Below, in pieces: positions 1 through 24,190 of a stretch of 64,000 bases of DNA. The position numbers and the translations under genes are program-made. Position 1 is the first letter of the stretch. Every line of letters starts with the position of its first letter. Below the pieces are notes generated by a model, which was given only the letters and a program-made list of their open reading frames with translations, did not search any database and was not told the origin of the DNA. Source of the stretch: Prorocentrum cordatum (taxonomy: Eukaryota); assembly GCA_963575745.1 (NCBI GenBank), contig CAUYUJ010000288.1:1-64000 (forward strand), written 5' to 3'.

Positions 1-183
1 GGAGTGGAGTGGAGTGGAGTGGAGTGGAGTGGAGTGGAGTGGAGTGGAGTGGAGTGGAGTGGAGTGGAGTGGAGTGGAGTGGAGTGGAGTGGAGTGGAGT
101 GGAGTGGAGTGGAGTGGAGTGGAGTGGAGTGGGGTGGGGTGGGGTGGGGTGGAGTGGAGTGGAGTGGAGTGGAGTGGAGTGGA
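1..183. repeat. (GGAGT)n pentanucleotide microsatellite, running off the window edge
   Basis: Direct reading, with a few GGGGT variants at about 131-150. It abuts the 3' end of minus-strand LINE-C. Confidence 0.98.
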
Positions 184-1152: not shown

Positions 1153-1280
1153 CGGACCCTGGGGGGTTCTTATCTGACGAGGGCGGCGGTGATATCCATT
1201 GCCAACCCACGATTGGGGTCTCACGGGCTTCCAGACCCTGGATTCCTTACCCGATGGTTCCTTATCCAATGCCCTCACCG
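1153..1280. mobile_element. MITE family M1 copy with a deletion near its left end; host of the LINE-B insertion
   Basis: Colinear with 62378-62489 (CTGGGGGGT..ATCTGA[C/T]GAGGGCGGCGGTGATAT..GCTTCCAG[A/G]CCCTGGA[T/C]TCCTT..ATCCAA..TCACCG). Flanked by TA at 1151-1152 and, beyond LINE-B, at 7523-7524. Confidence 0.8.
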
Positions 1281-3265: not shown

Positions 3266-6200
3266 AGCACCTGGAGCAGGCGATCTTCTCCCTGGCAGTT
3301 CAGTTCGACGGCTTGGGCAACCCGGTGTTCAACGGCACCGAGATGGATACGATAGTTCACGAGGTCAGGAGCGGCTCCTTTGACGGGCTGCAGGTGATGA
3401 AGGCCATCGCCAGGGTCACTGACAAGCACGTCAAGGGCGATGCGTCTGCAGCTAGGACCCGCTGGAAGGAGTTCGTGGACGAGTCGCTGGCGGGAGGAGG
3501 CCGTGGAGCTCATGCTATTAGCAAGAAGGTCCACGGCGAGGCGAAGCCGATCTTGGCGGACGGCAGCGGCGACTCGCCTCCTGTACCACTGGTGGGCCAA
3601 GCGGCCTTGGATCAGATGCTAGTGGAATGGGAGGCCCTGTGGAGCTGCGGGGACGGCCAGCAGACTAGACCTGCTGACTGGCTCACCACGTCGGACCTGC
3701 CCCCGATCACAGCTGAGCAGGTGATAGCGTCGGCGAAGACGTTCGCGAAGAAGACGGCGCTCGGATGGGATGGCTTCCACCCCAGGCTGCTGAAGATGTT
3801 AGGTTGGCCGTTCGCGCAGCGCATGGCGGACGTGCTGACGCAATGGGAAAGGCACCCGCAGCCGACGGCGATGTTCACCACGCTCATCGTCTTCTTGGGC
3901 AAGCCTGGGGGAGGACTTCGCCCCATCGGCCTGATGTGCTTTTGGCTCAGAGTTTGGGGCAGGATTCGCAGGCAGTATTGTTTACAATGGGAGCGCGACC
4001 ACCGCCTTCCTGAGATTTGGGGCAGCAGCTCTGACACCTGCTGCGATAGAGCAGCGTACTTGCACAACTTGTACCTAGGCCTCGCTCGGAAGGTCGGCTT
4101 CGACGGGGTCTCGGTGCACTTTGACATAAGCAAGTTCTACGAGCGAATCGACCACGGGCTGCTTCTGAAGGCGGCCGAGTTAAATGGATTCTGCACAGGC
4201 TTGGTACGTGCGCTCTGTGTTGCATACTCGGGACCGAGGAGAGCTACGGCAGACAGCGCCGTCAGCGAGGAGATACATGCGAGGGGCACGGTCATAGCTG
4301 GCTGCTCGTGTGCAACAACGATGGCCAGGCTCATGCTGATGGACCTTCTTGTCAAGAGCCGAGCCAAGCTCCCCATCGGGAGGATCGTCAGCGTGATTGA
4401 CGACATCTCGGGCAATGGAATCGGATCCAGAGGCGTGCTAGTCAGTCAGATGAACAGCTTCGTCCAGGGCGTCGTGGCGATGCTGAGAGACAAGCGGCTC
4501 CCGATCAACTGGGGCAAGACGAAAGTGCTGGCACCCTCAGTGGACATCCAGCGCGAGCTGATGAATCAGGAGGGGTGGCCGCTGGACAGGGCCGCCTTTG
4601 CTCAAGGACACCGAGATCTCGGTGGTGACGCGACGGCTGGTGGTCACCGTATGGTGGCGACGCAGGTCAAGCGGGAGCTGGATGCACTCCGTCAGGCAGC
4701 GAGACTGACACGCATCTTCGGACCTGGGCTGCGGCAAGCTCGGGTGATGCGAGCTGGGCCGACGGCCAAGGCGCTCTGGGGCTCGGCCATCGCTGGAGTC
4801 CCACCTGGGCGCATGAGGGCGCTGAGGGTGGCAGCTGCTAAGAGCGCTGGGCGCCTGCCGCCTGGAGCGGCCCTCAGCTTTGCCCTGCAGTGTGCGCCCC
4901 GCGGCTGGCGGCAGGACCCGCTGGTGGTGGCAGCGGGAATGGCAGTTCAGGCATTCGTCAACGTGGTGTGGTCTGGACAAGCCACTGCATCAGCCATCCA
5001 AGCGTGCATCCAAGAGAGCCAGCAGGTGCTAAGCAAGCAGCGGCCTTGGAGCTCGGTCCGTCAGCCGATAGCGGCGCTCACGCTCACTCTGCAGAGGATA
5101 GGCTGGCAGCTCTCCGTCGACGGCACCAAGCTGCTGGACGAGGACAAGGGGGAGTTCGAGGTGCTGCATTTCTCGCCCGCGTTCCTGGCGGAGTGGGCCA
5201 GAGAGGCCACGAGGAAAGCGGCTGCGCTGGGGGAGGCCCGAGCTCGTCCTGGATCGCTCTGGCCATGGAAGCTGCCGCCACAGTGGAGGCCAGTCAACGA
5301 GCTGCTCGGCAAGAGGGAGACGGAGACCTGGACTGGGCACCACAAAGGCTGCCTGCGCTGGCTCGTCTCGCTCTCGCACTGGCCCCAGGACCGTCTTGCG
5401 AGGCACTCCTCGGACATCGACCCGATCTGCAAGCTATGCCAGGCTGCACGAGGCACGGTGTTCCACAGGCACCACGTCTGCCCAGCTTGGGAACCTTGGC
5501 GGCGTGACAGGCTGCCGTCCGACCTGAAGCGTGCTGCTTGGTTGGTCCACGAGATGGGCCCGCCGTTCGATGAGCTGTTCTGCCAGGGCCTGTTCGTGGA
5601 CCCCTCCCTGCTGTTGCATCGTCCGTTCTGGCAGCCTCAATGGGAGCGGCTCTCGCATGGTTGGCATGAAGCAGTGGTGGTCGAAGACGGTGCCATGGTT
5701 TTCACAGACGGCTCCTGTATCCTCGGTGACTTTCCGCGCCTGCGCAGCGCTGGCTGGTCGGTCGTCGTGATGTCCAAGGAAGGGGCGATCCTAGCAGAGG
5801 CGTGGGGAGCGGTTCCCCCCAGTCTATGCCCATCGCAGACGGCACGTGCTGGAGAAGACTACGCAGCGGTGGTGGCGCTCACTGAGGTCATTGGCAACTA
5901 CCAGCTGCTGATCGACTGCAAGGGCACAGTGGACTCGGCGCTCAACCTTAGCAGAGCTCAGGGCCCAACTTCGACCTACGCCCATCTCTGGGCCAGAGTT
6001 GGGGATGCCGCGGAAGGTGTTGAAGTCAAGCACATTCCCGCACATCGGTCAGAAGCAGCGGTGGCCAGAGGGGAGATATCGGCTATCGAGCTCTTCGGCA
6101 ACCGCCTAGCAGACAAGCGAGCGAAGGAGGGGGCCGCCCTCCACGCTCTTCCAGCCGACGATGTCCAGCTTCTGGAGGGCTGCTTAGCCAGGGCTCGCGA

Positions 6201-7509
6201 CGCAGCTCGCTTCGCCGCAGAGATCGAGGTCTTCATCACGGATTCTGGGATGCGAGACTGCTGGCCGACGGAAGCCCTGGATAACGTCAACCTCCAGCCG
6301 TACCTCTACCCGTGGAACCTGTCGTGCGAGGACGAGGGCTACGACTTGTTGGACGCCTCCGCGGCGCAGCGTGGCAGGGGCTCGGCAGCTGTGTCAGCGG
6401 CAGCCTTCGCCGCGGCGGCAGCGACCAGCGCAGCGGCAACAGGTGCTGCTGCAGGCGCCGCGGGCGGCGCAGCGGGGCCTGTCCGCAAGCGCCCAGTGGC
6501 TGCGCAGAGGGCCGGCTCCGCCCCTGCCGCCCCCATCGCTGCGGGGCCAGGAGAGGGGGGCATTTCTCGTGCTGAGGCAGCGAGCGAGGTGTTTGCGAGA
6601 GAGGTTCGGCGCAGGGCGGAGGCCAGGTCGTCCGCAGAGTCCTCTCATCGCTCCCAGCTGGAGGAGCAACGCCCGTCCCCTGCCCCCACGACTGGACCCG
6701 AGCCATGGGTAGTGCACGGCCACAACATAATGCAGACCAACGTGGTGAGCAAGCCGAGCGAGGCCATCCTGGTGTGCACGCGCTGCTTCATGTACTGCCA
6801 CCAGCCGCGATACGCGCACAGGGGCCTGGCCAAGCCGTGTGTCGGTGGCGATCACAGATCAAGCCAAGGGTCGCGTGCTCAGGCCAGGACGGACTTCGGC
6901 AGGTTGCGATTGCCAGGCAAGGAGAAGCCGCCGATCGTGATGCTCAAGTCGCCGACGATGGAGGAGATGCAGCGCTGGCGGAGGTCGCTCAAGATGGACG
7001 ACTTCGACGGGCCCATCCTTCAGGTGGACGAGTGCCTGGCGGCGGCGCGTGCTGGCGGCCCTGGCGGCTCGCCAAGGCCTGCGGCTGCACAGCCTGCAGC
7101 GGGGCGAGCTGCTGGCGCGGCTGGGCCTGCGGGCGGAGCGGCGGCGGCTTCGGCGAGCGCCTCGGCTGCCGCGGGCGCGGCGGCGGTGCAGCCCGCGGTG
7201 CGCGAGGGCGTGCAGGAGCTCTTCGTGCCCGCCCTGGAGGACGTCCTCCGCGCGCACGGCTTCGCGTCGGCGGACGACGCCCGCGCCCGAGGGCGCGAGG
7301 CGGCCCAGGCGCGCGGGGAGCGGGACCGCGCGCGGGAGCGCGGCGCGGCGGCCCCGCGAGCGGCGAGGAGGCGGGGCCAGCGCTGGTGAGCCTCCCCCTC
7401 CTCGGCCGCCGAGGGGCCCTCAGCAGTCCCGCGCCGTTTGCGCGGGCATGCGGCAGTGCCCGAGAATTTGTGGCATGACCACGCGGGTGCTCGCGCCCGC
7501 TCGCAGAGT
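1281..7509 (+). mobile_element. Near-intact non-LTR retrotransposon LINE-B (APE endonuclease - RT - RNase H), probably 5'-truncated
   Basis: Bounded by the exact 13-bp direct repeat AATGCCCTCACCG at 1268-1280 and 7510-7522. Two long ORFs with one apparent frameshift. No poly(A) tail. Confidence 0.92.
3178..7389 (+). CDS. LINE-B reverse transcriptase - Zn knuckle - RNase H - C-terminal Cys/His motif polyprotein
   Basis: RT: ALGWDGF, GGLRPIGL, FDISKFYERIDH, GTVIAGCSCAT, SVIDDI. Zn knuckle: CKLC..H...C. RNase H: VFTDGSC, RAGED, IDCKG, HIPAH, GNRLADKRAK. C-terminal: HNIM..CTRC..LAKPC. Confidence 0.95.
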   Translation: MWLSLGRLVKQLRAAASVSEPAKGHALYMKHLEQAIFSLAVQFDGLGNPVFNGTEMDTIVHEVRSGSFDGLQVMKAIARVTDKHVKGDASAARTRWKEFVDESLAGGGRGAHAISKKVHGEAKPILADGSGDSPPVPLVGQAALDQMLVEWEALWSCGDGQQTRPADWLTTSDLPPITAEQVIASAKTFAKKTALGWDGFHPRLLKMLGWPFAQRMADVLTQWERHPQPTAMFTTLIVFLGKPGGGLRPIGLMCFWLRVWGRIRRQYCLQWERDHRLPEIWGSSSDTCCDRAAYLHNLYLGLARKVGFDGVSVHFDISKFYERIDHGLLLKAAELNGFCTGLVRALCVAYSGPRRATADSAVSEEIHARGTVIAGCSCATTMARLMLMDLLVKSRAKLPIGRIVSVIDDISGNGIGSRGVLVSQMNSFVQGVVAMLRDKRLPINWGKTKVLAPSVDIQRELMNQEGWPLDRAAFAQGHRDLGGDATAGGHRMVATQVKRELDALRQAARLTRIFGPGLRQARVMRAGPTAKALWGSAIAGVPPGRMRALRVAAAKSAGRLPPGAALSFALQCAPRGWRQDPLVVAAGMAVQAFVNVVWSGQATASAIQACIQESQQVLSKQRPWSSVRQPIAALTLTLQRIGWQLSVDGTKLLDEDKGEFEVLHFSPAFLAEWAREATRKAAALGEARARPGSLWPWKLPPQWRPVNELLGKRETETWTGHHKGCLRWLVSLSHWPQDRLARHSSDIDPICKLCQAARGTVFHRHHVCPAWEPWRRDRLPSDLKRAAWLVHEMGPPFDELFCQGLFVDPSLLLHRPFWQPQWERLSHGWHEAVVVEDGAMVFTDGSCILGDFPRLRSAGWSVVVMSKEGAILAEAWGAVPPSLCPSQTARAGEDYAAVVALTEVIGNYQLLIDCKGTVDSALNLSRAQGPTSTYAHLWARVGDAAEGVEVKHIPAHRSEAAVARGEISAIELFGNRLADKRAKEGAALHALPADDVQLLEGCLARARDAARFAAEIEVFITDSGMRDCWPTEALDNVNLQPYLYPWNLSCEDEGYDLLDASAAQRGRGSAAVSAAAFAAAAATSAAATGAAAGAAGGAAGPVRKRPVAAQRAGSAPAAPIAAGPGEGGISRAEAASEVFAREVRRRAEARSSAESSHRSQLEEQRPSPAPTTGPEPWVVHGHNIMQTNVVSKPSEAILVCTRCFMYCHQPRYAHRGLAKPCVGGDHRSSQGSRAQARTDFGRLRLPGKEKPPIVMLKSPTMEEMQRWRRSLKMDDFDGPILQVDECLAAARAGGPGGSPRPAAAQPAAGRAAGAAGPAGGAAAASASASAAAGAAAVQPAVREGVQELFVPALEDVLRAHGFASADDARARGREAAQARGERDRARERGAAAPRAARRRGQRW

Positions 7510-7522
7510 AATGCCCTCACCG

Positions 7523-9702
7523 TAACAGGAGCTCATATATTCCGCCTCGAGGAACCGGCTGCTTCCGACCAGGGAGAGGCCCCAGGATACCAGCCTTCAC
7601 GACGGGGGTGTCGTAGGAAGCTGACGTAATTGCTGAAACTCCAACGCGTGTAAAAGCTGGTTCGCGTGCATCTGGTCCTCCAGATGCGTCGCCGAAAACA
7701 ATGACTGGGTGGCCAATCGTGCCGACTCCGAGAGTAGTATCATGCAGAGTTCCCGCCATCTCGTTGCAACCGGCAGTGGACCACGAGGGTTTTGAGCTGG
7801 CTAGCGGCACTGCAGTCCAAGCTCGGGGAATGAGATCCCGCATCCAAAAACAAGCCTCGCTTTCGCCTCTGGCCATGGCTGAACCGACCAAGTTGCCAGA
7901 GGCCTTGAAAGCTTTGTGCTCTCCACTGTTGTTTCTGCAAAGCCAAACTTTATGCAGAGCAGTCTCTGGCGATTCTTGGCATCGAGGGCGAAGTGGGCTG
8001 ACGCGATGACGAGTTTCGTCGACGACGCGTTGACGAGGCCAGAATCCCCCAGTGGCGATGCTGATCATCGCTCTGGCGAGGCGATGTCCGTGATTACTCT
8101 GCCGTCGACTATGAAACACGACGATGGCTAGTATTGTCTACTCCACCTTGGACCCCTTTTCCCCACAAGAATGTCTGGAAGCACGTGACCAGGCAAGCTG
8201 TTGAAATGACTGCTGAAATTCGTCGAGCACCTCGGTCGGGTCCTCAAATCCAGTGGGGCCCTCGTCGGAACAAAAACCAGTGAGCGCCATCGTCTCCTGG
8301 AGTGGACCACTCCTTTGGCGATGTCGGTGTCCATGCTACTTCTAACATGTACCCAATAAGAGCCCTCATGGGGCCCCGAACCTGCCTGGGGAACTGAGAA
8401 GGTAGCATATTTTGAAGCACCCCACGTGCCCGAGGCCAGGCTTGACGAACCATAGGACGAAGATGAGGAACACCAAACCACGTATCTAACCATAACTCCA
8501 TCGCACCCCGAGGAAACGTAGCAAACGGGTCGGCACCAGGAACGCGTAAGTCTAGAAGGGTGGTAAGACATCGCCGTTTTCCTTAGCTCCCATAGACGCC
8601 CCGAGCCGTCGCCTACAACCAACGCGGAAAGATCCAAGCGAACCGTATATTTGTTGGCCAGACGATCCAGCAGCTTGCGCCCCTGCACGTCCCAACCGCC
8701 GAGTAACCTTGTACCGTCTGGATGCACGAGCGAACTTCCGAACCTTGACCGTCATCGGGGATGCTTTGGTGATGCGCTTACGTCGGGTGGAACGGGCAGG
8801 GCGTCCAGCGCCAAGGTCCACGCCGAGGTGCTGAGCCCGGAGCGCGCTCTGAACTGCGAAGCTTGGCGGCCACAAACACACCGTCGCAGGAATTGGAACA
8901 TATTGGAGCACTCTTGGGAGCGGCTTTCAGACCTGCCTTGGAGAGCTCGCTGCACGCATCGCGCAGGCACCAATAAAACTTGGCACGAACAACCTTCTTG
9001 GACCCAACAACCCTTTGATAGAGTTCGTCGACCCAAATCCTCATGGGCGCCCCCACGTGGGTGGTAGTGATTTTGGGAAGGATGAAATCAACCATGCACC
9101 TGCCGAAGCGTGCGCCACTTCTGAGACCTTGCACTATGCTCCGAAATGGTTGAAATGCGACAGAGAAACAACCGTCTTGGGCGAGAGTTCGCGGGGCCAT
9201 GCAATTCCGAAGCTCCAGCCCTAGAACGACAGCGGGGAAATGAAATTGAAGAGAAGTGCCGACCAACGCCTCCCAAGACATTGAATCTTAAAAAGCTCCA
9301 ACATCGATCAAACCCGTGCCGAAATCGATACCCATCCGCATCCAAGCTCCATCTTGTAAAGCTCGAACGAAACTTCGCGGAGTGCTGAGTTGCCTCGGAT
9401 GGTGGCGTCCACGCTGGCTCTGAGGAGGAGATCCAGGAGCGAACATCTCCACGAGCTAACAACCACACTCGGGTGAACATGGCCATTGACCCGGCCACCC
9501 TGTCGCCCCTATTTTTCTTCCCGAGAAGCTTATTTATGACGATGATCACTTGCCAGGGCCATGTGAGCCGTGCTTCGCATGCTTGAAGTAACTGCAGAGG
9601 CTGCTGGGCACCTTCAGGTGGAAGCCGCTGCATATCGATCGGTGACATCTGGCCGACACCCTGACCAGCGCGTGCTTCCATACCTCGAAGAGCGGTTTCC
9701 AC
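7523..9702 (-). pseudogene. LINE-C RT, Zn-knuckle remnant and RNase H N-half
   Basis: GKKNRGDRVAG, RSIVQGLRSG, IWVDEL (YxDD equivalent), QHLGVDLG, PRCQESPETALHKVWLC, VFGDASGG, GPLPGRKQPVPRGGIYELLL. Confidence 0.85.
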
Positions 9703-10989
9703 CCGATCGCCCGCGAGATCAGGTAAGTGATCGTCTTCGGCTGCAGCTCGAATCCGATCGTGCAGTTGGCCTAAGGCGCGGAGTCAGACTTCGCCTGGGC
9801 TCCACAGATTGTGTCATCGCTTGGCCTTCTGGTCTAAAACGTCTTTGTGGGTAAAAAGGACCTCACCACCAACCTCGATCTCAGAGGAAGGGTTGGGGGT
9901 GGACTTGCGGGCCTTGTGGAGCACTCCAATGGCTTCGGAGTGGAAATCCATCCCCGAAATTCGCCCAAGGAACTTTGGAGATCCCGACGCCTGGCACGAG
10001 CTGCTACGCGTTTGGCCAACGACCAAAGATGTTGCAACGTAGTCATATCTAGCGACTGCGCATGCAAAAACTGAGACTGCCAAATCGACCAAGAGCCGTC
10101 CGCTGGGTCGAGAGACGCAAGTAGGAGGTGAACTAATTCTGGAACGTCACCGGCTAGAGCTGAGAACGTTGCTGAAGGGCGAACCCGTCGTATTGCCCCG
10201 CTGCCTTCTATAACCACGTGATGGCAAATATTGTGAAGTACAGTGTGTGTACCCTTCCCAACCAGCATGCAACTTGCCCGTGCCAGGGTTCCGTGCGAAC
10301 TGTATCCAGCACGTGAAGCCTGGTATCCTCCTGGCATCGCTCGGACGTGTGCATTTTCCCTTCGGCGAGGACTATCGAGGAGCATCCTCGATCATTTGGA
10401 AAAAAAATCACGCACGAAACCAAAAAATACACAGGGAATGGACGTCCGAGCGATGGCGAGTCCTTGAAGTGTGGGCCTTCGGCCCTGGACCGGAGAGGAG
10501 GCCGTGCGTCACGATGCGCCGCGAAGGTCTGCCCCACTTGTGCGTGCCCGTTGTGAATGCGACGCGCTCCCACTCATGATGTGCTCGTGACCCGCGTGAA
10601 GTGCAGCGGAGTCCCTCATCGCAGGCCGAGCATCTTCTGACTTGCCCGCCGGTGCGCGCCCGATGCCCCGCTCGGCGGTTGCCCAGGACTCGTCGGAGAT
10701 GGCGAAGGTGGGAAGAGGAGGGGAAGGAGAACAAGGGCCCGCCTGATCCCCGCTGGGCCTTTCGGGGGCGGGTGGGTTTACAACCTCTAAGGTTGGTTCG
10801 TGGGCTTCTTGCTCGAGCTGGAAATCGCTAGCCTGCGACTCGGACGCGCTGGGCCCCCGCACCCCCAGGAGGAGACCCTGCCAGGGGGGCGAGCGAGAGA
10901 GGGGCCCAGGGACCGCACCTTCATCGTCCGAGTCGTCAGACAAAAGCTGTACTTGTGCTGTTGAGGAGCCTTGAGCGTCCTCATTCGAA

Positions 10990-11694
10990 TCAAACCTCCG
11001 AACAGCTCCTGGTGCTGCTCGTCGGCAAACATACGAGCAGCAAGTTTTTTTTCCGCAACGAGGCACGATTCTGACTAGACTTGGACCCAGCCTGTGGCAA
11101 CTTCTTGGGCCTCGGGGCCTGCGGAAGCTTGGGGGCCATGCGAAGCTCACGACAAAGCAACTGCTGACTGGAACTGCGAAGTACGTCGAACCGAGCTTCG
11201 ACGCGAGAAATGAAGGGAACGCTGGCTCTGCTTGCAAGCACGTGGTCGATGTGAGTCCCTGCTCCTATTGAACGTATGTGCTGCAACGGCCATTTGTAAA
11301 TCATGCCGTCGACTCGGTCAACAAAACCTACCCGCTGGAGAGTCTTTGGAGGAACGTTCCAACCCCCAACAACAATCCACGGGAGACGGCGCTGCTGGAG
11401 CAGAGCGCCGAGACGAGCTAGCCGTGGGAGATTGCGCCCGCGGTGCCCTTCGCCAGAGTTAGGGTAAAACGTGACACGGACGTAAGAGTATCCTTCAACC
11501 TCCTGCAGTGGACCAGTCCAGAGAAGAAGTACCATCTGCTGTAAGGTCCTTCCAGGCCCCGTCGGGGTGCGCAAGGGAGTGAACTTGCAAGTGCTTCTTG
11601 CTGAGAATGCATTATCCGCCCTCGTTGGCACGAGCCTGACCTGCTGAGGTCGACCCAGTGCCCGTGCTACGAGCAGGGTTGCAAAATTCTGCAA
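10990..11694 (-). pseudogene. LINE-C APE-type endonuclease remnant
   Basis: VTFYPNSG, LPWIVVGGWNVPP (GDWN-like), THIDHVLAS. Confidence 0.8.
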
Positions 11695-11925
11695 CTTGGC
11701 CTTCGCGGCCTCTTACTTCCAATGAGCAGTGCTGTCATTGGATTCGACGTGAGTCTCGCACAAGGAATGACACTGTAACTAGAAGCCCTGCCGCTAGTGA
11801 GAAAACCCCAGTCCTTTTTGCTGAGCAACGTGATGCTGGCAACAAAACATCGGTGTCTCACTGGACGACGACGTGGGCTCCCACCCCGCGGGAGCCGGCC
11901 TCAGTGCAGTCACCGACCCAAGCTC

Positions 11926-12134
11926 TGGACGCCCGAAATGGGTACTGAAAGAATGGGTACTATGCCCAACAGCAGTTCCTGTTCATTCTGAACAGGACTC
12001 GCTGTCCGCGCCGCCGCGGCCTGTGTCCATTCGAGACAGGAGGCCGCCCGCCCAACAGCGGCCGCTGTTGGTTTGGGACAACATTTGTTGTTGGGCATAG
12101 TGCCCATTCTTTCGGTACCCATTTCGGGTGTCCA
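11926..12134. repeat. 49-bp inverted repeat pair (foldback/MITE-like) inside LINE-C
   Basis: 11926-11974 versus the reverse complement of 12086-12134 match at 45/49. An internal perfect palindrome CCAACAGCGGCCGCTGTTGG lies at 12052-12071. Confidence 0.9.
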
Positions 12135-12529
12135 AACAAGCGATTGGCGGCTCGAGTGGCTCCCGTGCGGGTATCGCTCGTCGTTGCTGCTGGCCGCCGC
12201 CGCTGCTGCCCGAGCTGCTGCCAGCTTGGCTGCGCTGAGCCGCCGCGCCCCGGCCGCTGTCCCGGCCTCGCCGCTGGGCGCCTGGCCGGCCGCGGGCCCC
12301 GCTGCGGCTGCGCCGCCGGCGCTGCCCGCCGTGGGCTGCGCAGCCTCGCCGCGCGGGTCATTCCCAGAGATCCAACGTCCTGAAAATTTTTGCAATTTTT
12401 GGCCTCGATCTAGGGGCCGTCGCCGGGCCCCGGGACCGTGAAGAAACGGCTCAGGATGAACAGCCGGTCCCGTGGAGTGGATCGAGGCTTCTGGGGGCCG
12501 CGCATGGAAAAAATCACGGCGTCGGATCT

Positions 12530-13463
12530 CTGGGTTGCCGCTGCAGCCTCCGTCGGCTGCGCTCCCACTGGCGCCTGCCGCGGAGCTGCCATCGTTGCCC
12601 TTGCGCTTCTTGGCCGTGCGCTTCATGATGGTGTCCTGCACGGCCCGATGCTTGGCGGGCCACTCCTGGACCTCAGACGACTTGTTGCCCACCAGATCGC
12701 GCACAGACCTGAGGTCGGCCTCGATCCGCTTGAGGCCGGCCTTCTCCGCGTCGCTGACCTCCATCGTGTCCAAACCCTTGGAGAATTCCTCGTCCCAGGA
12801 GGCTGAGAACAACGCCTGCCCTTTGCTGTCGGAGCTGGCCGAAGAAAGTTCACGATTGGGTACGACTCCATTGAGCCCGGCCAGCGCCCGAACTGCGAGA
12901 TGCTGGGACTTCTCGGCCTTCGCGAAGGGGGAGCGCCGCTGCTGCCTCACGCTCTGTGGCCTTCTCAACGACTTCGCGCGCACGAAGGGGAGCTTGAACT
13001 GCTTGATCGTGTTTGGTGGCCGCATCACGCACAGCCGCTGTAGCTCGACGCACCGACTCCTCGGGTGTGATGGCCTTCTCGGAGGCGCTGCCGTCGTGGG
13101 TCTCGAGCTTCTGCACGTGAGCTGTGAGGATGGCCTTCATCGCTGGATCGGCGGTGATTGACAGAGCCTGCTCGTGCACCGCCGTCGGAGATGATGTGGT
13201 TGCTGCTGGACTCGGTGCCCTTGGAACGCGGGCGAGGTAGTGGCCGTCCTGGCCCCTTTGCTGAACTGCGGGGCTGCCTTGGATCGGTACAGCGTGACCT
13301 CTGCATAGCACTTCGGGCACCGACGCCGTTGCTGCAATAATACTCTGTTCCGCTCTTGACGCCCGCACTTCTGACATGCTGACCATCCATCGGGAGACGG
13401 TTCCGAACTGTCGGGAGAGGCGCCATGAGACTGTGACTTGAACCCTGGCTTCTTCTTGGCCAT
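12530..13463 (-). pseudogene. LINE-C ORF1 remnant with N-terminal CxxC-x15-CxxC finger and helical/coiled-coil-like region
   Basis: ATG at 13463 gives MAKKKPG...WSACQKC..RRRCPKC. It continues through frameshifts in ORFs 12850..13386 and 11910..13028 (LKRIEADLRSVRDLV..KRTAKKRK). Confidence 0.65.
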
Positions 13464-13575
13464 GGCTGGAGAGAAAGGAGATGTGGAACTGCCCTCCTTA
13501 GTCAGCCTGTTGGAGCGGTGCCAGAACACTGCCCCTCCTGGTGCCCCTCAGGCGCCACGGGGAGGCGAGGGCGGG

Positions 13576-13611
13576 CTCAGGACAAAATGTCCGGAGCCGA
13601 AATGGCTTGAG
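13576..13611 (-). other. Tandem relict dinoflagellate spliced-leader sequences at the LINE-C 5' end
   Basis: The minus strand reads CTCAAG-CCATTTCGGCTCCGG-ACATTTTGTCCTGAG. That is the SL 3' hexamer followed by 12/15 and 10/15 matches to the relic CCATTTTGGCTCAAG. Confidence 0.75.
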
Positions 13612-13765
13612 GGAGGAGGAGGAGGAGGAGGAGGAGGAGGAGGAGGAGGAGGAGGAGGAGAGGAGGCGGAGGAGGAGGGAGGAGGAGGAGGAGAGGAGGC
13701 GGAGGAGGAGGAGGCGGAGGAGGAGGAGGCGGAGGAGGAGGAGGCGGAGGAGGCGGAGGAGGAGC
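13612..13765. repeat. (GGA)n microsatellite flanking the LINE-C 5' end
   Basis: Direct reading. Confidence 0.95.
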
Positions 13766-13904
13766 GTGGACGTGTACGCCCCCATGCCCCGAATCATCAT
13801 TGGGTGGTGCACGGTCGGGGACTTCTGCACGGCGTGCCTCGCCGCGGGCTCCGAGGCCTGCCGCGCCGCGACGCGGCACGCCCCCCGCGCCGCGCTTTGC
13901 CGCG

Positions 13905-14787
13905 GCGCCTCGCCGACCGGTCTCTGCCGAGCCTCCCGGCCCGTCCAGCGGAGCGACGCGCGAGCCGCTTGCGAGGGCACGGGGTATCGTCAAACGACGC
14001 GAAGATCGGGACAAAATCGGATCGGGATAACTCGAAATCTCTGAGAATCGGCGGGTTGGGAGGATGTATTGGGCGCCGCGGCCGCTCCAGAGCGTTCCTG
14101 AACGCCCTGAGAGCGCTCCGGAACGCTCTGGAGCGATTTGTCCCGATCCTAGCCCTGTTTTAAGGGCACGGGGTGTCGCCGGGGCGGCTCGCCGACCGGT
14201 CTCTGCCGAGCCTCCCGCGGCCCGCCCAGCGGAGCGACGCGCGAGCCGCTTGCCAGTGCACGGGGTGTCGTCAAACGACGCGAAGATCGGGACAAAATCG
14301 GATCGGGATAACTCGAAATCTCTGAGAATCGGCGGGTTGGGAGGATGTATTGGGCGCCGCGGCCGCTCCAGAGCGTTCCGGAACGCCCTGAGAGCGCTCC
14401 GGAACGCTCTGGAGCGATTGATCCCGATCCTAGCCCTGTTTTAAGGGCACGGGCAGCGGAGCGACGCGCGAGCCGCTTGCCAGGGCACGGGGTGTCGTCA
14501 AACGATGCGAAGATCGGGACAAAATCGGATCGGGATAACTCGAAATCTCTGAGAATCGGCGGGTTGGGAGGATGTATTGGGCGCCGCGGCCGCTCCAGAG
14601 CGTTCCGGAACGCTCTGAGAGCGCTCCGGAACGCTCTGGAGCGATTTGTCCCGATCCTAGCCCTGTTTTAAGGGCACGGGGTGTCGCCGGGGCGGCTCGC
14701 CGACCTGTCTCTGCCGAGCCTCCCGCGGCCCGCCCAGCGGAGCGACGCGCGAGCCGCTTGCCAGGGCACGGGGTGTCGTCAAACGAC
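13905..14787. repeat. Tandem repeat, about 281-bp unit (one unit about 227 bp), about 3.3 copies
   Basis: GCACGGGGT[A/G]TCGTCAAACGA recurs at about 13977, 14258, 14485 and 14766. The units are near-identical and the last is cut by LINE-D. Confidence 0.95.
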
Positions 14788-17700
14788 ATCTCTCGGGCTA
14801 GGAAGGACTGGGCCGCCTGGCTTTCGGAGGGTATCAACCAGGGTGCCAGAAGAGCCCACCAAGTTTCTAGGGATCCCGCGGCTTGGAGGCCGACGAGTAC
14901 GCTGAGTAGGTTCCGTTCCTTGGTCGCGGATCCTACGGAGCTGCTGAACGCTGAAAGGACTAAGTTTGGGAAACTTTGGCATGCCAGCTCCCAGGCCCCC
15001 AAGATTAGGGTTCGCACCCAGGATCCGCTTCCTGCCATCCCAGTCGAGACGAGCAGAGAGATCTCTCGGGGTTTCTCACGTAGGTCTGCTGTCGGTCTGG
15101 ACGGCTTCCACATGAGGCACTACCAGTTCCTGGGCGATGATGCCCTTCGGTGTTTTTCGGAGCTCTGGACCTTGGTGGAGCTGCCTGGGGGGGTGCTTCC
15201 TAGTCAACTTCGGGCCCTCATCGTGGCCTTGATTCCGAAGACGGTTCCTGGATTTCGCCCCATCGGGGTTTTCTCCAGCCCCTACCGCTTGTGGGGGAGG
15301 GCTCGCCGCCCGATTGCTGTGTCCTGGGAGGCCCAAAACGATCGGCCCTACTGGGCTGCTGGGAAGCATCGCTCTGCGACAGACGTGGTCTGGAGGCAAG
15401 CCATGCGAGCTGAGACCAGCACGGCAAGAGGCCGTCACGCAGGCGCAGTTTTTTGGGATATGCTGAAGTACTACGAGCAGATTCCCTTAACGCTGCTCGA
15501 GCAGCGTAGCCTCAGGCTTAAGTTTGATCATGTTGTGTTATCGGTGTGCTTGTCGGCGTACCGATCGGCTAGATTCATGGTCTTGTGCGGGGTGGTTTCC
15601 CCTTTCCCAGTACGTTTCCTTCGGTGTTGTCGCGGGTTGCTCGATGGCGACTACCCTGATCAAAGCTCACGGGATGGAGGCTTTTGATTCCGTTCCGATC
15701 GCCCCTGACACTACGCTGGACATTTACATCGATGACACGGTTTTGAATTCGGTTGGATCGGCCGACACCGTGGTCGAGAGTTTAAAGGAGTCTTCGGCCG
15801 CCCTCGAGGTGGCGATCACTCGCATGATGAGGGCCCAAATTTCCATGGACAAGGTGGCTTGTGTCGCCTCTTCCAAGGTCATGTCCCTTCGGCTGGAAGA
15901 GGCGTTCGGGCCTCTGGTGGGCCCCCCCCTCGAAACCACGGTGAACCTGGGGATTGATTTTACGGCAGGGACCTCGAGGCGTGTTCGTGGCCGCAATGCT
16001 AGGGCGAAGGCCCGCTTGTCGAACGCAGCCAGGCGTACCAGGAGGCTGCTGAAGCTTAGGGGCGTTCTTGGACGTAGGACAGCTAAGGTGTTCGTTTCGG
16101 GCCTCCTGGCGGGCCTGCAGTACGGCTCGGAGGTGCACGGCATGACTGACGGAGAGTTGGCGTCAGTACGTAAAATGTTTGCTTCTACGTTGAAGCCGTC
16201 GGCTGGAGGTCGCAGCTTGACGATTTTGACTCGGTTGGAATCGGACCCTGTCTGGTACGGCTCGGTGGCGCCTATTGTTAGATATGTGCGTGAGTTGTGG
16301 CTTCTGCAGACGCATGCGTCCCCATGGGGGCTTTCGTGGGCTGGGTTGCGGTCGTCTTGGGAAGCTACCTGGAGTGCCCCCCCAAAGACGTGTACATCGG
16401 TTAAGGGACCGATGGGAGCTATGTATCTTTCTTTGGCCAGACTGGGTTGGACGATGCCCGACTCCTACACATGTACGGGCGATACTGGAAGAAATATTCC
16501 TCTCCTGGTCTCCTCCCCCGCCCTTTTAAAGAGGTGTTTAACAGATTATGTCCTTCGTGGCTTGGAGTTTGCTGCTGGAGAGAAATACGGCGACGGTGAT
16601 CGGTTGTGCTTTGACTTGGTTTCCAGGGCCTTGGTTTCCAAGAGATTCTCCCCCAGGCAGAAGGGCGCCATTAGAGCGCTCACTTGCCAGGCTTTGTGGC
16701 CTATGTCTCGGGCTGCGGAGAAGGGCTACATCGTGCCCGATGTGTCCCCTGTGCTCTAGGAGTGGAGACGCGGTGCTCCACAGACTGTGGTTTTGCGAGG
16801 CCTGTGAAGACAAACGGCAAGAAGTTGTCGATCCCGAGCTTTTGGATCGCATCCGTGGTGACCTGGGAGCGAACTCGACCCCTTCCTTTCGTTCCCTGTG
16901 CGAGTCGGGATTGTTCCCTCACCCAGCTAAGGACTTGCCTGGCCCTCTTAGTCACGAAGCCGCCCTTGAGGCAATTAGATACGAGTTCTTTCCTAGGGCC
17001 TTCGCCGAGGAAGGACTACCGCCGCCACCCCAGGGGATGAGGGAGATCTCGGGTAAGATTTTCTTGGATGGCTCGTGCTTTAAGTCGAAGGTCAAGGACC
17101 TGTCTAGGAATGGCTGGGGTGCTGTGATGATCGGTCCTTCGGGAAAATTGCTCGCTAGGATCTTTGGGTCTGTGAGCAATTTCTTCTCTCAGGCGAGCGT
17201 GGCCGCCGAGTTTATCGCCCCTGCCACGATCGCCAACCTCCTTGGCGGTCCCAGTTGGCTTTTCTCCGATTGTCAGATTGTTGTTAATGAGTCTAACAAG
17301 ACTCAGGCCGGGCGCCTCCACCCGAACAGGCCCTACGCTGGCCTTGTCTTGCAAGCGTTTGCTTTCGGTGGGGGTCACTTGGAAGAGCTGGCCAAGGTGA
17401 AAGCCCATCAAGAAGACGATCCGTCCCTTCCGCTGGATGATCGCATTTTTAATGTGGGGGAACACAGAGGCCGACAGGGCCGCTAAGATGGGGGCGTTGC
17501 TCCACCCCCGACTTTCGGAGTCCGAGGAGAGGCGTGTTGCTTATCTCGCGGACGTTGCGCAGGCCACTCTTCGGCTTGCGGCGAATCTTCTTGAGCTCTG
17601 GCCCCGTTCGAATCTTGAAGGAAGGGGTTGCTCGTGTTGTGGCCCCTCCCCCCTCGGCGAGAGCGGCGGGATCGCAGCATAGTTGGAACTGGGTTGGGCG

Positions 17701-20855: not shown

Positions 20856-20877
20856 TCCGTAGCCATTTTGGCCCAAG
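20856..20877 (+). other. Genomic copy of the 22-nt dinoflagellate spliced leader (relict SL)
   Basis: TCCGTAGCCATTTTGGCCCAAG versus DCCGTAGCCATTTTGGCTCAAG is a 21/22 match, ending 48 nt upstream of the ATG at 20926. Confidence 0.93.
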
Positions 20878-20925
20878 GTTTGGGGCCCGACCATCTTCAG
20901 AATTCAAAGTCACATCCTCGGCGGC

Positions 20926-21993
20926 ATGGCACTGCATGGCACTGCATTATTGTTGTGGATCTTCATCACCCCGGCGTATGCAGTTTGGAACCATTCAGGC
21001 ACAGAGTGGACACCACGTGCAGACAAGCATGCGACATATTTTGTTTTTTCGGGGAACGATGACGTACTCAAAGAGGCTAGCCTTTCTATCTATTCTTTAT
21101 GCAGGCTCGATCCGTCTGTAAGGGTGTTGATGGTCACAGATGAAGAAAACAAGGATGCGACTGCACGCGCAGTCACCGCAATCAGCGAAGCATGTTGGAA
21201 TGTTGCAAGGCCTGAGCACTTGTCAATGGTTATCGCGAACATAACCGAAATATCGCGTATAGTTTCCTCACATGGTTACACCAAACTTGCGCACCATTCT
21301 GGTTTTGGAGGCTATGCCAAAATGATTGCTGCTAACTTGATTCCCGAATCGATCGATCGCACGATTGTGCTCGACACAGACACAGTATTCAATGCCGCAT
21401 TTGAACAGCTCTGGAGGCAATTCGATAAGTTCAGCCCTGAACAGTTGCTAATGGGCAAACGGCTCAACGATTACTTGTGCGTCCATGGAGGCAACCGTAT
21501 CAATAGTGGTGTCGTCCTCATGGATTTAAGACGCATGCGGGACATCGGTTGGACTGAACTTGTGATGAGTGAGAGCAGGAAGTGCCACCATTGCATCGCT
21601 GGCGAAACACTGTCTTGTGGAGATCAGGAGCTTATTTCGTTCGCTTGCCAACAGAGACCTGGAGCGTGCAGTAGTTTTGACGTGAGGTTCCACTACGACT
21701 TCTGCAACGAGAGGAAGAACAATACATGGTGGAACAGCGATAACGCAACCATCTATCATTTTAATTGTGGAGGGGATGTGAGTCAATGCCCAGGACACGA
21801 GTGCAAATATAGCGTTGTAGAATGGAATAACCATTTCTGCCAACAAGCCGACCAGGCGTCATCGGTGCATCTCCTCGTTCTCCTCCTCGTGCTCCTCCTT
21901 GTCGCTATCCTCTTTCTTGGTGTCTCTTTTTTAAGAGCCAGGGGACAGCGGACATCGGTCGACAGGGTTTCGCAGATGGTGTGTTTGATTTGA
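20926..21993 (+). CDS. Glycosyltransferase family 8 protein, LARGE/xylosyltransferase-like; intronless probable retrogene
   Basis: 355-aa ATG-initiated ORF. Motifs HHSGFGGYAKM (compare LARGE HYSGIYGLMKL), IVLDTD (DxD), INSGVVLMDL, GDQELI and IYHFN. Hydrophobic N-terminal signal-like segment and a C-terminal hydrophobic helix. Confidence 0.9.
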   Translation: MALHGTALLLWIFITPAYAVWNHSGTEWTPRADKHATYFVFSGNDDVLKEASLSIYSLCRLDPSVRVLMVTDEENKDATARAVTAISEACWNVARPEHLSMVIANITEISRIVSSHGYTKLAHHSGFGGYAKMIAANLIPESIDRTIVLDTDTVFNAAFEQLWRQFDKFSPEQLLMGKRLNDYLCVHGGNRINSGVVLMDLRRMRDIGWTELVMSESRKCHHCIAGETLSCGDQELISFACQQRPGACSSFDVRFHYDFCNERKNNTWWNSDNATIYHFNCGGDVSQCPGHECKYSVVEWNNHFCQQADQASSVHLLVLLLVLLLVAILFLGVSFLRARGQRTSVDRVSQMVCLI

Positions 21994-23269: not shown

Positions 23270-24190
23270 CCTCCTCCTCCTCCTCCTCCTCCCCCTCCTC
23301 CTCCTCCTCCTCCTGCCTCCTCCTCCTCCTCTCCTCCTCCTCCTCCTCCTCCTCCTCCTCCTCCTCCTCTCCTCCTCCTCCTCCTCCTCCCTCCTCCTCC
23401 TCCTCCTCTCTCCTCCTCCTCTCCTCCTCCTCCTCCTCCTCCTCCTCCTCCTCCTCCTCCTCCTCCTCCTCCTCCTCCTCCTCCTCCCCTCTCCTCCTCC
23501 TCCTCTCTCCTCCTCCTCTCCTCCTCCTCCTCCTCCTCCTCTCCTCTCCTCTCCTCCTCCTCCTCCTCCTCCTCCTCCTCCTCTCCTCCTCCTCCTCCTC
23601 CTCCCTCCTCCTCCTCCTCCTCCTCCTCCTCCTCCTCCTCCTCCTCCCTCCTTCCTCCCTCCTCCTCCTCTCCTCCTCCCTCCTCCTCCTCCTCCTCCTC
23701 CTCCTCCTCCTCCTCCTCCTCCTCCTCCTCCTCCTCCTCCTCCTCCTCCTCCTCCTCCTCTCCTCTCCTCCTCCTCCTCCTCCTCCTCCTCTCCTCCTCC
23801 TCTCCTCCTCTCCCTCCTCCTCCTCCTCCTCCTCCTCCTCCTCCTCCTCCTCCTCCTCCTCCCCTCCTCCTCCTCCTCTCCTCCTCCTCCTCCTCCTCCT
23901 CCTCCTCTCCTCCTCCTCCTCCTCCTCCTCCTCCTCCTCCTCCTCCTCCTCCTCCTCCTCCTCCTCCTCCTCCTCCTCCTCCTCCTCCTCCTCCCCTCCT
24001 CTCCTCCTCCTCCTCCTCCTCTCCTCCTCCTCCTCCTCCCTCTCCTCCTCCCTCCTCCTCCTCCTCCTCTCCTCCTCCTCCTCCTCCTCCTCCTCCTCCT
24101 CCTCCTCCTCCTCCTCCTCCTCCTCCTCCTCTCCTCCTCCTCCTCCTCCTCCTCCTCCTCCGCCTCCTCCTCCTCCTCCTCTTCCTCCTC
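23270..24190. repeat. (CCT)n microsatellite
   Basis: Direct reading. Confidence 0.98.

What the first reader, a model, noticed from the sequence alone, without database searches (positions are those of the whole stretch)
13464..13611. LINE whose 5' end is a stack of spliced-leader relics: a retrotransposon that may cycle through host trans-splicing
Seen: the very 5' end of LINE-C reads CTCAAG + CCATTTCGGCTCCGG + ACATTTTGTCCTGAG. A 112-nt leader and the ORF1 ATG (13463) follow, and only (CCT)n lies upstream. The matches decay inward (6/6, 12/15, 10/15). Known: dinoflagellate mRNAs get a 22-nt SL by trans-splicing, and repeated retroposition leaves tandem 15-nt CCATTTTGGCTCAAG relics with the oldest innermost. 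Inference: this lineage passed through about three SL-addition/retroposition rounds. It may use the internal AG of its genomic SL copy as an acceptor to cut a capped, unit-length RNA out of read-through transcripts. That would replace the internal promoter or 5' ribozyme other LINEs use.
Basis: partly seen in the sequence, partly recalled or inferred. Interest (0 to 1): 0.85.

Follow-up and report, generated by a model that had tools for sequence, protein, structure and literature searches.

The report
Spliced-leader relics capping a dead LINE
A decayed jumping gene (LINE) in a dinoflagellate genome begins with leftover copies of the short leader that these algae splice onto every mRNA, so its ancestors were copied back into DNA from spliced messages several times, as already known for ordinary dinoflagellate genes.

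Summary
On the minus strand a (CCT)51 array is followed by CTCAAG, CCATTTCGGCTCCGG (12/15) and ACATTTTGTCCTGAG (10/15), a 112-nt leader and an ATG at 13463. No other site in the window comes within 11 mismatches of this 36-nt pattern. None of 300 shuffles exceeded 25/36 against 28/36 observed, and about 2e-7 to 3e-6 such sites are expected per window.

The genome is dinoflagellate. A 21/22 spliced leader heads a glycosyltransferase retrogene at 20856, and the nearest proteins are from Prorocentrum cordatum.

The ATG opens a complete but frameshifted ORF1 (zinc ribbon plus predicted coiled coil). Its family has 92 clusters. Two database proteins link ORF1 to the shattered region downstream, which looks like endonuclease, RT and RNase H.

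The best reading is the known mRNA-recycling mark, here on the retrotransposon itself, with at least three leader additions.

Not supported:
- The inward decay gradient is not significant.
- This copy lacks the internal CCGTAG acceptor.
- That trans-splicing replaces a promoter is untested.

I could not fetch any other genomic copy or any RNA, so the family-level test is still open. Interest is moderate.

The parts
13612..13764 (-). (CCT)n microsatellite, the 5' flank of the element. It reads as a roughly 150-nt polypyrimidine tract on the element's strand.
   Evidence: TRF gives period 3, 51.3 copies, 88% matches. The same repeat type occurs at many other places in the window.
13606..13611 (-). 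CTCAAG, the last 6 nt of the 22-nt spliced leader: a 5'-truncated remnant of the most recent SL.
   Evidence: It is 6/6 and in phase with the relics. CTC could also be read as the end of the CCT array.
13591..13605 (-). SL relic 1, CCATTTCGGCTCCGG (12/15)
13576..13590 (-). SL relic 2, ACATTTTGTCCTGAG (10/15)
   Evidence: In-phase p = 6.5e-4.
13464..13575 (-). 112-nt leader (5' UTR) between the relics and the ORF1 ATG. It ends in TTTCTCTCCAG just before the ATG.
   Evidence: No Rfam family apart from one chance-level hit.
11910..13463 (-). ORF1 with an N-terminal CxxC...CxxC zinc ribbon, a central region that looks like a coiled coil by eye, a basic KKRK patch and an RLSAAK tail. It is complete relative to the family profile but has two frameshifts and an inserted interspersed repeat of about 125 nt.
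   Evidence: A family HMM of 38 members matches profile positions 6-78 (frame of the ATG, E 2.4e-10), 55-159 (another frame), and 160-280 plus 278-341 (the first frame again). tblastn of P0005 gives 62% and 53% identity.
10990..11712 (-). Probable AP-type endonuclease domain at the start of ORF2
   Evidence: Pfam Exo_endo_phos at E 0.0011 and 19.3 bits, below the 24.5-bit cutoff. ESM Atlas nearest clusters carry Exo_endo_phos or Exo_endo_phos_2 at scores 0.90-0.92 (a lead only). The tail at 11175-10991 matches P0004 residues 234-295.
8394..9860 (-). Probable reverse-transcriptase region, split over several frames
   Evidence: No Pfam hit. tblastn of the neighbouring LINE's ORF2 gives E 0.13 over its RT N-terminal part at 9861-9463. 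P0023 residues 377-555 match 9005-8394. An Atlas cluster with RVT_1 on 22% of members sits at rank 11, score 0.91 (a lead only).
7517..8137 (-). Last recognisable ORF2 fragment. It holds a GDASGG motif that resembles an RNase H start by eye. The element is cut off here by the 3' end of the convergent intact LINE at 492-7389 (+).
   Evidence: Translation, no Pfam hit, sequence. The RNase H reading is my inspection only.
20856..20877 (+). In-window control, not part of the element: a near-complete 22-nt spliced leader (21/22) heading a glycosyltransferase-8 ORF (20863-21993). This is a classical SL-tagged retrogene.
   Evidence: Pfam Glyco_transf_8 at E 1.9e-5 and 24.8 bits, above the cutoff.

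Best explanation
These are genuine dinoflagellate spliced-leader relics marking the 5' end of an old, dead copy of a non-LTR retrotransposon.

Like other nuclear mRNAs in these organisms, the element's RNA received the 22-nt SL by trans-splicing. Its own reverse transcriptase then copied that RNA almost to the 5' end, so each daughter copy carried an SL in DNA. When such a copy was transcribed from upstream, a new SL was spliced onto the AG inside the genomic SL. That left the 15-nt relic CCATTTTGGCTCAAG.

Two relics plus a 6-nt SL tail mean at least three SL additions and retrotranspositions in this lineage. The last insertion lost 16 nt at the 5' end and landed in, or next to, a (CCT)n array.

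Shown: the motif, its significance, its position upstream of a family-typical ORF1, and the multi-copy family.
Inferred: the order of events, that the downstream ORF2 is LINE-type, and any functional use of the SL (cap, 5'-end definition, acceptor or promoter motif).
For: - Sequence and statistics: 28/36 matches, a unique site, 0 of 300 shuffles above 25, and an expectation of 2e-7 to 3e-6 per window.
- Relic signature: both full units begin exactly after the SL's internal AG and are in phase at 15 nt. This is the trans-splicing signature described in PMC7245778 and PMC3229502 (passages).
- Published pattern: 'CTCAAG followed by CCATTTTGGCTCAAG' is reported as the dominant pattern in dinoflagellate retrogene transcripts (PMC12014239, passage).
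- Host: a 21/22 SL sits in front of a GT8 retrogene in the same window. The only 3 hits of the ORF1 search are Prorocentrum cordatum proteins.
- ORF1: a profile of 38 family members covers positions 6-341 of 356 in three frame pieces, starting in the frame of ATG 13463. 19 of the 102 stored proteins scanned carry the W-x-x-C-x-x-C zinc-ribbon motif within 4-21 residues of their first residue.
- Family size: 92 cluster representatives at E <= 1e-3.
- One element: P0004 joins ORF1 to 11175-10991, and P0023 joins ORF1 to 9005-8394, collinearly.
- Endonuclease: Pfam E 0.0011 plus Atlas leads.
Against: - Only one copy could be examined. No second genomic copy, consensus or transcript was obtainable, so I cannot show that 13611 is the family's 5' end or that other copies carry relics.
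- The reverse transcriptase is not confirmed by any curated model. The endonuclease hit is below Pfam's cutoff. A search for longer relatives of the endonuclease ORF found none.
- The 3' end is missing, so there is no poly(A) tail or target-site duplication to prove retrotransposition of this copy.
- CTC of CTCAAG may belong to the CCT array. Only two rounds would then be firmly recorded.
- The other two LINE copies in the window (492-7389 and about 14500-17500, plus strand) show no SL-like motif at the thresholds used. Their true 5' ends are unknown and they belong to another family.
Confidence: 0.72

Rival explanations
1. This is a functional SL-dependent LINE. The family has no internal promoter. 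It relies on trans-splicing at its genomic SL, or on the AG behind the pyrimidine tract, to cut a capped unit-length RNA out of read-through transcripts. The relics are therefore a working part of the life cycle and not a passive scar.
For: - The relic stack shows that SL-bearing copies themselves served as sources at least twice.
- No ribozyme or other Rfam family lies in the leader.
- The flank (CCT)n followed by CTCAAG looks like a textbook polypyrimidine-AG acceptor (my inspection).
- The 5' half of both relics, which holds the TTT(G) motif proposed as a portable promoter (PMC6050394, passage), is kept at 15/18 against 7/12 for the 3' half.
Against: - Nothing here tests function.
- This copy lacks the internal CCGTAG acceptor and is dead.
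- The difference between relic halves is not significant (p = 0.21).
- Since dinoflagellate nuclear mRNAs are reported as trans-spliced (PMC6027434, abstract seen in the listing), relics would accumulate on any retrocopied RNA whether or not the element depends on them.
- I saw no RNA data.
Confidence: 0.25
2. The SL relics belong to a retroposed host gene. On this reading the 'ORF1' family is a cellular zinc-ribbon and coiled-coil gene copied by someone else's RT, and it only happens to lie upstream of an unrelated LINE fragment.
For: - No Pfam family for ORF1.
- Several relatives sit as complete ORFs on short 1.3-1.9 kb contigs with little room for an ORF2.
- More than 20% of dinoflagellate genes carry such relics (PMC5585692, abstract and passages).
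Against: - Two independent database proteins from other loci join ORF1 to sequence that lies 1-4 kb downstream in the window, in the same order and strand (P0004, P0023).
- P0082 shows, by eye, an ORF1 followed by a QETH-type endonuclease start, and it has a weak RNase H hit (E 0.066).
- The gap between the ORF1 end (11910) and the endonuclease ORF (11712) is under 200 nt.
- The architecture is typical of LINE ORF1 proteins (established knowledge, recalled).
Confidence: 0.08
3. This is a site-specific LINE that targets SL RNA genes or SL sequences, like SLACS/CZAR of trypanosomes or NeSL-1 of nematodes. Alternatively it is a 5' chimera made by RT template switching onto SL RNA.
For: SL-derived sequence lies exactly at the element's 5' junction. 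Such elements exist in other SL-using organisms (recalled, not read here).
Against: - The upstream flank is (CCT)n, not the 5' part of an SL exon.
- No SL intron or SL RNA gene features are present, and there is no Rfam hit.
- The units start right after the internal AG and repeat at 15 nt. That is what trans-splicing of an SL-bearing transcript produces, not insertion into an SL gene.
- A template switch would add the 5' end of the SL (DCCGTAG...). That is exactly the part that is missing.
Confidence: 0.03
4. The resemblance to the spliced leader is due to chance.
For: Relic 1 alone (12/15) is expected about 1.2-1.5 times per window. The pattern was defined after seeing the sequence.
Against: The joint expectation is 2e-7 to 9e-6 per window. 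0 of 300 shuffles came within 2 matches of the observed score. The site is in the right strand and position relative to an ORF start, in a genome that demonstrably carries SL-tagged retrocopies.
Confidence: 0.02

Closest known systems
Relic spliced leaders of recycled dinoflagellate mRNAs (Slamovits & Keeling 2008, known to me only through passages in PMC3229502, PMC7245778, PMC5585692 and PMC12014239)
   Same: - The same 15-nt unit starting after the SL's internal AG.
- Tandem, in-phase units directly upstream of the coding region.
- A truncated CTCAAG followed by a full relic, reported as the commonest pattern.
- Downstream relics more degenerate.
   Different: The tagged RNA here is that of a retrotransposon, not a host gene. 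The relics therefore record the element's own retrotransposition cycles. This is seen in genomic DNA of a dead copy, not in a transcript.
DinoSL-bearing genes of GO class 'RNA-dependent DNA replication' in Symbiodinium genomes (Song et al. 2017, PMC5585692)
   Same: Genes for reverse-transcription functions with DinoSL relics upstream, found by genome-wide screen (passages).
   Different: That paper reads the enrichment as a sign of retrotransposon activity during retroposition bursts. In the passages I saw it does not describe the anatomy of any element or treat the SL as its 5' end. The genus and the element family are also different.
SL-containing retrotransposons in Schistosoma mansoni (PMC5832876)
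   Same: The authors suggest that retrotransposons bearing the SL are 'trans-spliced retro-transcribed elements' (passage).
   Different: It concerns a flatworm SL and a single SL rather than a stack of relics. The authors caution that it may be an assembly artefact.
SLACS/CZAR/CRE (trypanosomatids) and NeSL-1 (nematodes): LINEs inserted in SL RNA genes. Recalled, not read here.
   Same: A physical association between a LINE and SL sequence in an SL-using organism.
   Different: Those elements insert into SL RNA genes and are flanked by the two parts of the SL exon. Here the SL pieces are mRNA-type relics at the 5' end only, and the flank is a microsatellite.
L1Tc and R2-type LINEs with 5' HDV-like ribozymes, and L1 internal promoters. 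Recalled.
   Same: They solve the same problem of making a defined, translatable 5' end for a LINE RNA.
   Different: No ribozyme family matches the leader. The 5'-end definition proposed here would come from host trans-splicing, which was not tested.

Membership tests
DinoSL-relic-tagged retrocopy (mRNA recycling) | The host is a dinoflagellate that uses the 22-nt DinoSL | tested here: met
   A 21/22 DinoSL lies in the same window at 20856-20877, ahead of a GT8 ORF. All 3 hits of the ORF1 search are Prorocentrum cordatum proteins. Trans-splicing itself was not observed.
DinoSL-relic-tagged retrocopy (mRNA recycling) | Tandem 15-nt units equal to the SL downstream of its internal AG, in phase | tested here: met
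   12/15 and 10/15, contiguous, preceded in phase by CTCAAG. The expectation is 2e-7 to 3e-6 per window.
DinoSL-relic-tagged retrocopy (mRNA recycling) | Position in the 5' UTR, same strand, close to the start codon | tested here: met
   The relics end 112 nt before ATG 13463. Its frame carries the family's N-terminal zinc ribbon.
DinoSL-relic-tagged retrocopy (mRNA recycling) | Retrocopy hallmarks at the 3' end (poly(A) remnant, target-site duplication) | not testable with these tools
   The 3' end of the element is cut off near 7500 by the convergent LINE at 492-7389.
DinoSL-relic-tagged retrocopy (mRNA recycling) | Transcripts carry a fresh SL joined to the relics | not testable with these tools
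   No sequencing run was listed, and read laying could not be used.
AP-endonuclease-type non-LTR retrotransposon (LINE) | Reverse transcriptase domain | tested here: inconclusive
   No Pfam RVT hit in any fragment. Only E 0.13 against the neighbouring LINE's RT, plus an Atlas lead (RVT_1 on 22% of members, rank 11).
AP-endonuclease-type non-LTR retrotransposon (LINE) | AP-type endonuclease N-terminal to the RT | tested here: inconclusive
   Exo_endo_phos at E 0.0011 and 19.3 bits against a 24.5-bit cutoff. Atlas leads at 0.90-0.92. No PDB match and no longer relatives.
AP-endonuclease-type non-LTR retrotransposon (LINE) | ORF1 upstream of ORF2 on one strand, linked in several copies | tested here: met
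   ORF1 at 13463-11910 is followed by the endonuclease ORF from 11712. P0004 and P0023, from other loci, join ORF1 to downstream sequence collinearly.
AP-endonuclease-type non-LTR retrotransposon (LINE) | Multi-copy, dispersed family | tested here: met
   92 representatives of clusters at 50% identity at E <= 1e-3. Named members lie on at least 8 different P. cordatum contigs, judged from the differing contig lengths. This is at the protein level only. No second copy lies in the window.
SL-gene-targeting site-specific LINEs (SLACS/CZAR/NeSL-1 type) | Insertion inside an SL RNA gene, with the 5' part of the SL exon in the upstream flank | tested here: not met
   The upstream flank is (CCT)51 and no 5' SL part is present. 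No SL RNA gene features or Rfam hit.
LINEs with a 5' self-cleaving ribozyme | An HDV-like or other ribozyme at the 5' end | tested here: not met
   Rfam found nothing at gathering level in the window. At E <= 1 over 13300-13800 it found only a chance-level lncRNA hit. An undescribed ribozyme is not excluded.

The most novel reading that the evidence does not exclude
This ORF1 family of dinoflagellate LINEs has no promoter of its own. It lives off host spliced-leader trans-splicing. The SL copy that each insertion carries, or a pyrimidine tract plus AG at the junction, serves as the acceptor that releases a capped, unit-length, translatable RNA from any read-through transcript. The conserved TTT(G) part of the relic may also act as a portable promoter. 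Such LINEs would then be the engine behind the massive SL-tagged retrogene formation of dinoflagellates.
Probability: 0.2. Interest if true: 0.7.

Novelty: new member of a known kind. Interest (0 to 1): 0.4.

Why it matters
Which retroelement drives the very large number of SL-tagged retrogenes in dinoflagellates is an open question. The reviews I read favour LTR Ty1/copia elements and say direct evidence is lacking (PMC6050394 and PMC5585692, passages).

A LINE whose own 5' end is a stack of SL relics shows two things. A LINE-type machinery copied SL-capped RNA nearly to its 5' end, and it did so repeatedly. That makes LINEs a concrete candidate for the retrogene engine. It also gives a countable record of retrotransposition rounds.

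It raises a testable idea for transposon biology as well: host trans-splicing could stand in for a LINE's promoter. On the present evidence, one dead copy, it is an expected consequence of known biology and not a new mechanism.

Tried and rejected
- Own genome: none is held.
- Sequencing runs: none was listed for 12700-13611, and no RNA holder was listed. Read laying was therefore unusable.
- Second copies in the window:
  - blastn found only the microsatellite and a 125-nt repeat.
  - tblastx found the same.
  - The family HMM on the six-frame translation hit only this ORF1.
- Metagenome contigs: two scans with ORF1 alignments found 0 confirmed loci out of 453 and 593 pattern matches. One search was an error because the alignment had no conserved stretch, so I remade it. 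The peptide patterns used were narrow, so this is weak evidence.
- Viral contigs: 0 confirmed of 58 pattern matches.
- Earlier scan notes: nothing by place, by words or by sequence.
- Protein searches:
  - Longer relatives of ORF1 gave only the two proteins already known.
  - Longer relatives of the endonuclease ORF gave none.
  - PDB sequence searches gave none.
- SL-derived peptides at the N-termini of the 102 stored proteins: none at an N-terminus. Internal LAQA-type matches lie in the alanine-rich central regions.
- Rfam: no family.
- Pfam at lenient thresholds on RT and RNase H fragments: nothing relevant.
- timed out and was redone.
- Literature: (one search failed on syntax). In the listings and passages I read, I found no paper that describes a dinoflagellate LINE beginning with SL relics. 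Supplementary tables of PMC5585692 and PMC8045281, which list DinoSL-bearing genes, were not opened and may contain such cases.

Full report
**What is in the sequence.** Read on the minus strand, a CCT-type microsatellite occupies 13764-13612 (TRF: period 3, 51.3 copies). It runs directly into CTCAAG (13611-13606), CCATTTCGGCTCCGG (13605-13591) and ACATTTTGTCCTGAG (13590-13576). A 112-nt leader (13575-13464) and ATG 13463 follow. Against the 15-nt relic unit CCATTTTGGCTCAAG the two units score 12/15 and 10/15.

**Is it more than chance?** Yes.
- The composite 36-mer (SL tail plus two relics) has a single site in the window at 11 or fewer mismatches, on either strand. That site has 8 mismatches.
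- In 300 composition-preserving block shuffles the best score was 25/36, and none reached 26, against 28/36 observed.
- The analytic expectation is 3e-6 per window.
- Relic 1 alone is not significant: about 1.2-1.5 such 15-mers are expected per window.
- The second relic in phase has p = 6.5e-4 and the in-phase CTCAAG has p = 2e-4. The joint expectation is 1.7e-7, or 9e-6 if only the AAG is credited, since CTC could belong to the CCT array.

**The host.**
- The window holds a second SL-related site and no others at the thresholds used. This is TCCGTAGCCATTTTGGCCCAAG at 20856-20877 (+), a 21/22 match to the full dinoflagellate SL.
- An ORF follows whose product passes Pfam's cutoff for glycosyltransferase family 8. 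This is a textbook SL-tagged retrogene and serves as an internal positive control.
- All 3 hits of the ORF1 search, and the named members of related clusters, are proteins of Prorocentrum cordatum.
- G+C is about 60% in most of the window. No whole genome is held for the window.

**What lies behind the relics: ORF1.**
- The frame of ATG 13463 runs to 11910 with one in-frame stop.
- phmmer with the apparently intact 297-aa relative P0005 against 1.84 billion representatives found 92 proteins at E <= 1e-3, of which 47 were at E <= 1e-10.
- Many relatives start with a short N-terminus and then a zinc ribbon of the form W-x-x-C-x-x-C ... C-x-x-C ... L-Y-K-P. This is followed by a long alanine- and glutamate-rich region that I read as coiled coil, a KKRK patch and an RLSAAKF tail.
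- A profile of 38 family members, run against the six-frame translation of the window, hits only this locus, in three pieces:
  - positions 6-78 in the ATG frame (E 2.4e-10);
  - positions 55-159 in a second frame;
  - positions 160-280 and 278-341 back in the first frame.
- So the window holds a complete ORF1 with two frameshifts. The stop at 13139-13137 falls where the true frame has shifted.
- An extra segment of about 125 nt at 12410-12534 is an interspersed repeat, with a copy at 48260-48384 (84% identity) and weaker copies elsewhere.
- The ATG at 13463 is therefore the family-typical start region, and the 148 nt upstream are the 5' UTR plus relics.

**What lies behind the relics: ORF2.** Downstream, the minus strand is a mosaic of short ORFs.
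- The first (11712-10990) gives Exo_endo_phos at E 0.0011, below Pfam's cutoff. Its ESM Atlas neighbours carry Exo_endo_phos families at scores 0.90-0.92 (a lead).
- The RT is not confirmed by any curated model. What exists is:
  - a weak collinear match (E 0.13) to the RT N-terminus of the neighbouring intact LINE;
  - an Atlas lead;
  - a match of 9005-8394 to residues 377-555 of P0023.
- The last fragment contains a GDASGG motif that looks like an RNase H start by eye.
- Two database proteins from other loci show that ORF1 and this downstream region belong to one element. P0004 joins ORF1 to 11175-10991. P0023 joins ORF1 (13167-12720) to 9005-8394. Both are in the window's order.
- P0082 shows, by my inspection, an ORF1 followed by a QETH-type endonuclease start, and it has a weak RNase H hit at E 0.066.
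- I therefore accept 'LINE' as probable, about 0.8, but not proven by domain models.
- The element is cut off near 7500 by the 3' end of a convergent LINE (492-7389, +) that carries an uninterrupted 1436-codon frame. That LINE belongs to a different family, as does a third copy at about 14500-17500 (+).

**How it most likely arose.** The units begin exactly after the internal AG of the SL and repeat every 15 nt. This is the signature of the recycling model as described in passages of PMC7245778, PMC3229502 and PMC12014239:
1. An SL-bearing mRNA is reverse-transcribed and integrated.
2. The copy is transcribed.
3. A new SL is spliced to the AG inside the old one, leaving a 15-nt relic.

Two relics plus the tail of a further SL imply at least three SL additions, the last followed by an insertion that lost 16 nt at the 5' end. 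'CTCAAG followed by a full relic' is reported as the dominant arrangement in dinoflagellate retrogene transcripts (PMC12014239). The template here is the retrotransposon's own RNA, so the stack counts the lineage's own retrotransposition rounds.

1. The inward decay is not significant: 6/6 vs 12/15 gives p = 0.53, 12/15 vs 10/15 gives p = 0.68, and 6/6 vs 22/30 gives p = 0.30.
2. This copy no longer has the internal CCGTAG acceptor, so the proposed self-excision cannot operate here as described. The AG of CTCAAG behind a 150-nt pyrimidine tract is a plausible acceptor, but that is my reading and not a test.
3. That trans-splicing replaces a promoter or ribozyme is untested. Rfam finds no ribozyme, which is weak evidence.
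4. A published alternative role for relics is a portable TTT(G) promoter motif (PMC6050394). The 5' halves of both relics are better kept (15/18 vs 7/12), but not significantly (p = 0.21).

**Rivals.**
- Chance is excluded (see above).
- A site-specific SL-gene-targeting LINE, or a template-switch chimera, is contradicted by the flank (a microsatellite, not the 5' part of an SL) and by the absence of exactly the SL part such events would add.
- A host-gene retrocopy lying by accident next to a LINE fragment is contradicted by the collinear links through P0004 and P0023. The short ORF1-only contigs keep it alive at a low level.

**What could not be done.** The decisive family-level test, the 5' ends of other genomic copies and SL-joined transcripts, was out of reach:
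- no genome is held;
- no runs were listed;
- two metagenome scans and one viral scan gave no confirmed locus;
- nothing turned up in earlier notes of this scan.

All conclusions about the family's 5' end therefore rest on one dead copy.

**Comparison with what is known, and novelty.**
- SL relics on retrogenes are well established.
- Genes of the GO class 'RNA-dependent DNA replication' are enriched among DinoSL-bearing genes in Symbiodinium (PMC5585692).
- Schistosoma retrotransposons bearing an SL have been suggested to be trans-spliced retro-transcribed elements (PMC5832876).
- My searches and the passages I read turned up no description of a dinoflagellate LINE whose 5' end is a relic stack. 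I did not open the supplementary gene lists of those papers.

I file this as a new member of a known kind: a known mark on a template where it is expected but little documented. It matters mainly as a lead on which retroelements drive dinoflagellate retroposition, and as a testable idea about LINE 5'-end formation.

**Scores.**
- Interest: 0.4.
- Confidence in the best explanation: 0.72.
- Probability of the bolder SL-dependent life-cycle reading: about 0.2-0.25.

Noticed in passing
window 20856-21993 (+): A near-perfect 22-nt spliced leader (21/22) sits directly ahead of an ORF with a glycosyltransferase family 8 domain. It is a classical SL-tagged retrogene. The SL is followed by GT, as in SL RNA genes, but no Rfam family matches.
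   Followed up: partly
window 12410-12534, with copies at 48260-48384, about 61971-62113, 56622-56698 and about 59777-59911: A short interspersed repeat of about 125 nt (84% identity between the two best copies) is inserted inside the LINE's ORF1. Its nature is unknown.
   Followed up: no
window 492-7389 (+): A second LINE of another family has an uninterrupted 1436-codon frame with weak RT and RNase H Pfam hits. It lies tail-to-tail with the dead element and probably truncates it. No SL-like motif was found near its presumed 5' region, but its true 5' end is unknown.
   Followed up: partly
window 13899-14680 (+): Tandem repeats of 281 and 227 bp (96-97% identity), each containing a 21-bp sub-repeat. 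They lie between the (GGA)n array and a third, 5'-truncated LINE copy (about 14500-17500) that is related to the one at 492-7389.
   Followed up: no
window 1-183 (+), and many (GGA)n/(CCT)n arrays (for example 23270-24190, 42488-43226, 56948-57167): A (GGAGT)n satellite lies at the window start, and GGA/CCT microsatellites are pervasive. The LINE's 5' flank is therefore a common repeat type in this genome and not a special target.
   Followed up: no
proteins P0004, P0009 and P0082 (database gene models of Prorocentrum cordatum): Gene models fuse LINE ORF1 sequence to host domains: EF-hand in P0004, an ion transport domain in P0009, and a source label of xylosyltransferase for P0082. This suggests that retroelement ORF1s are embedded in annotated genes of that assembly.
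   Followed up: partly
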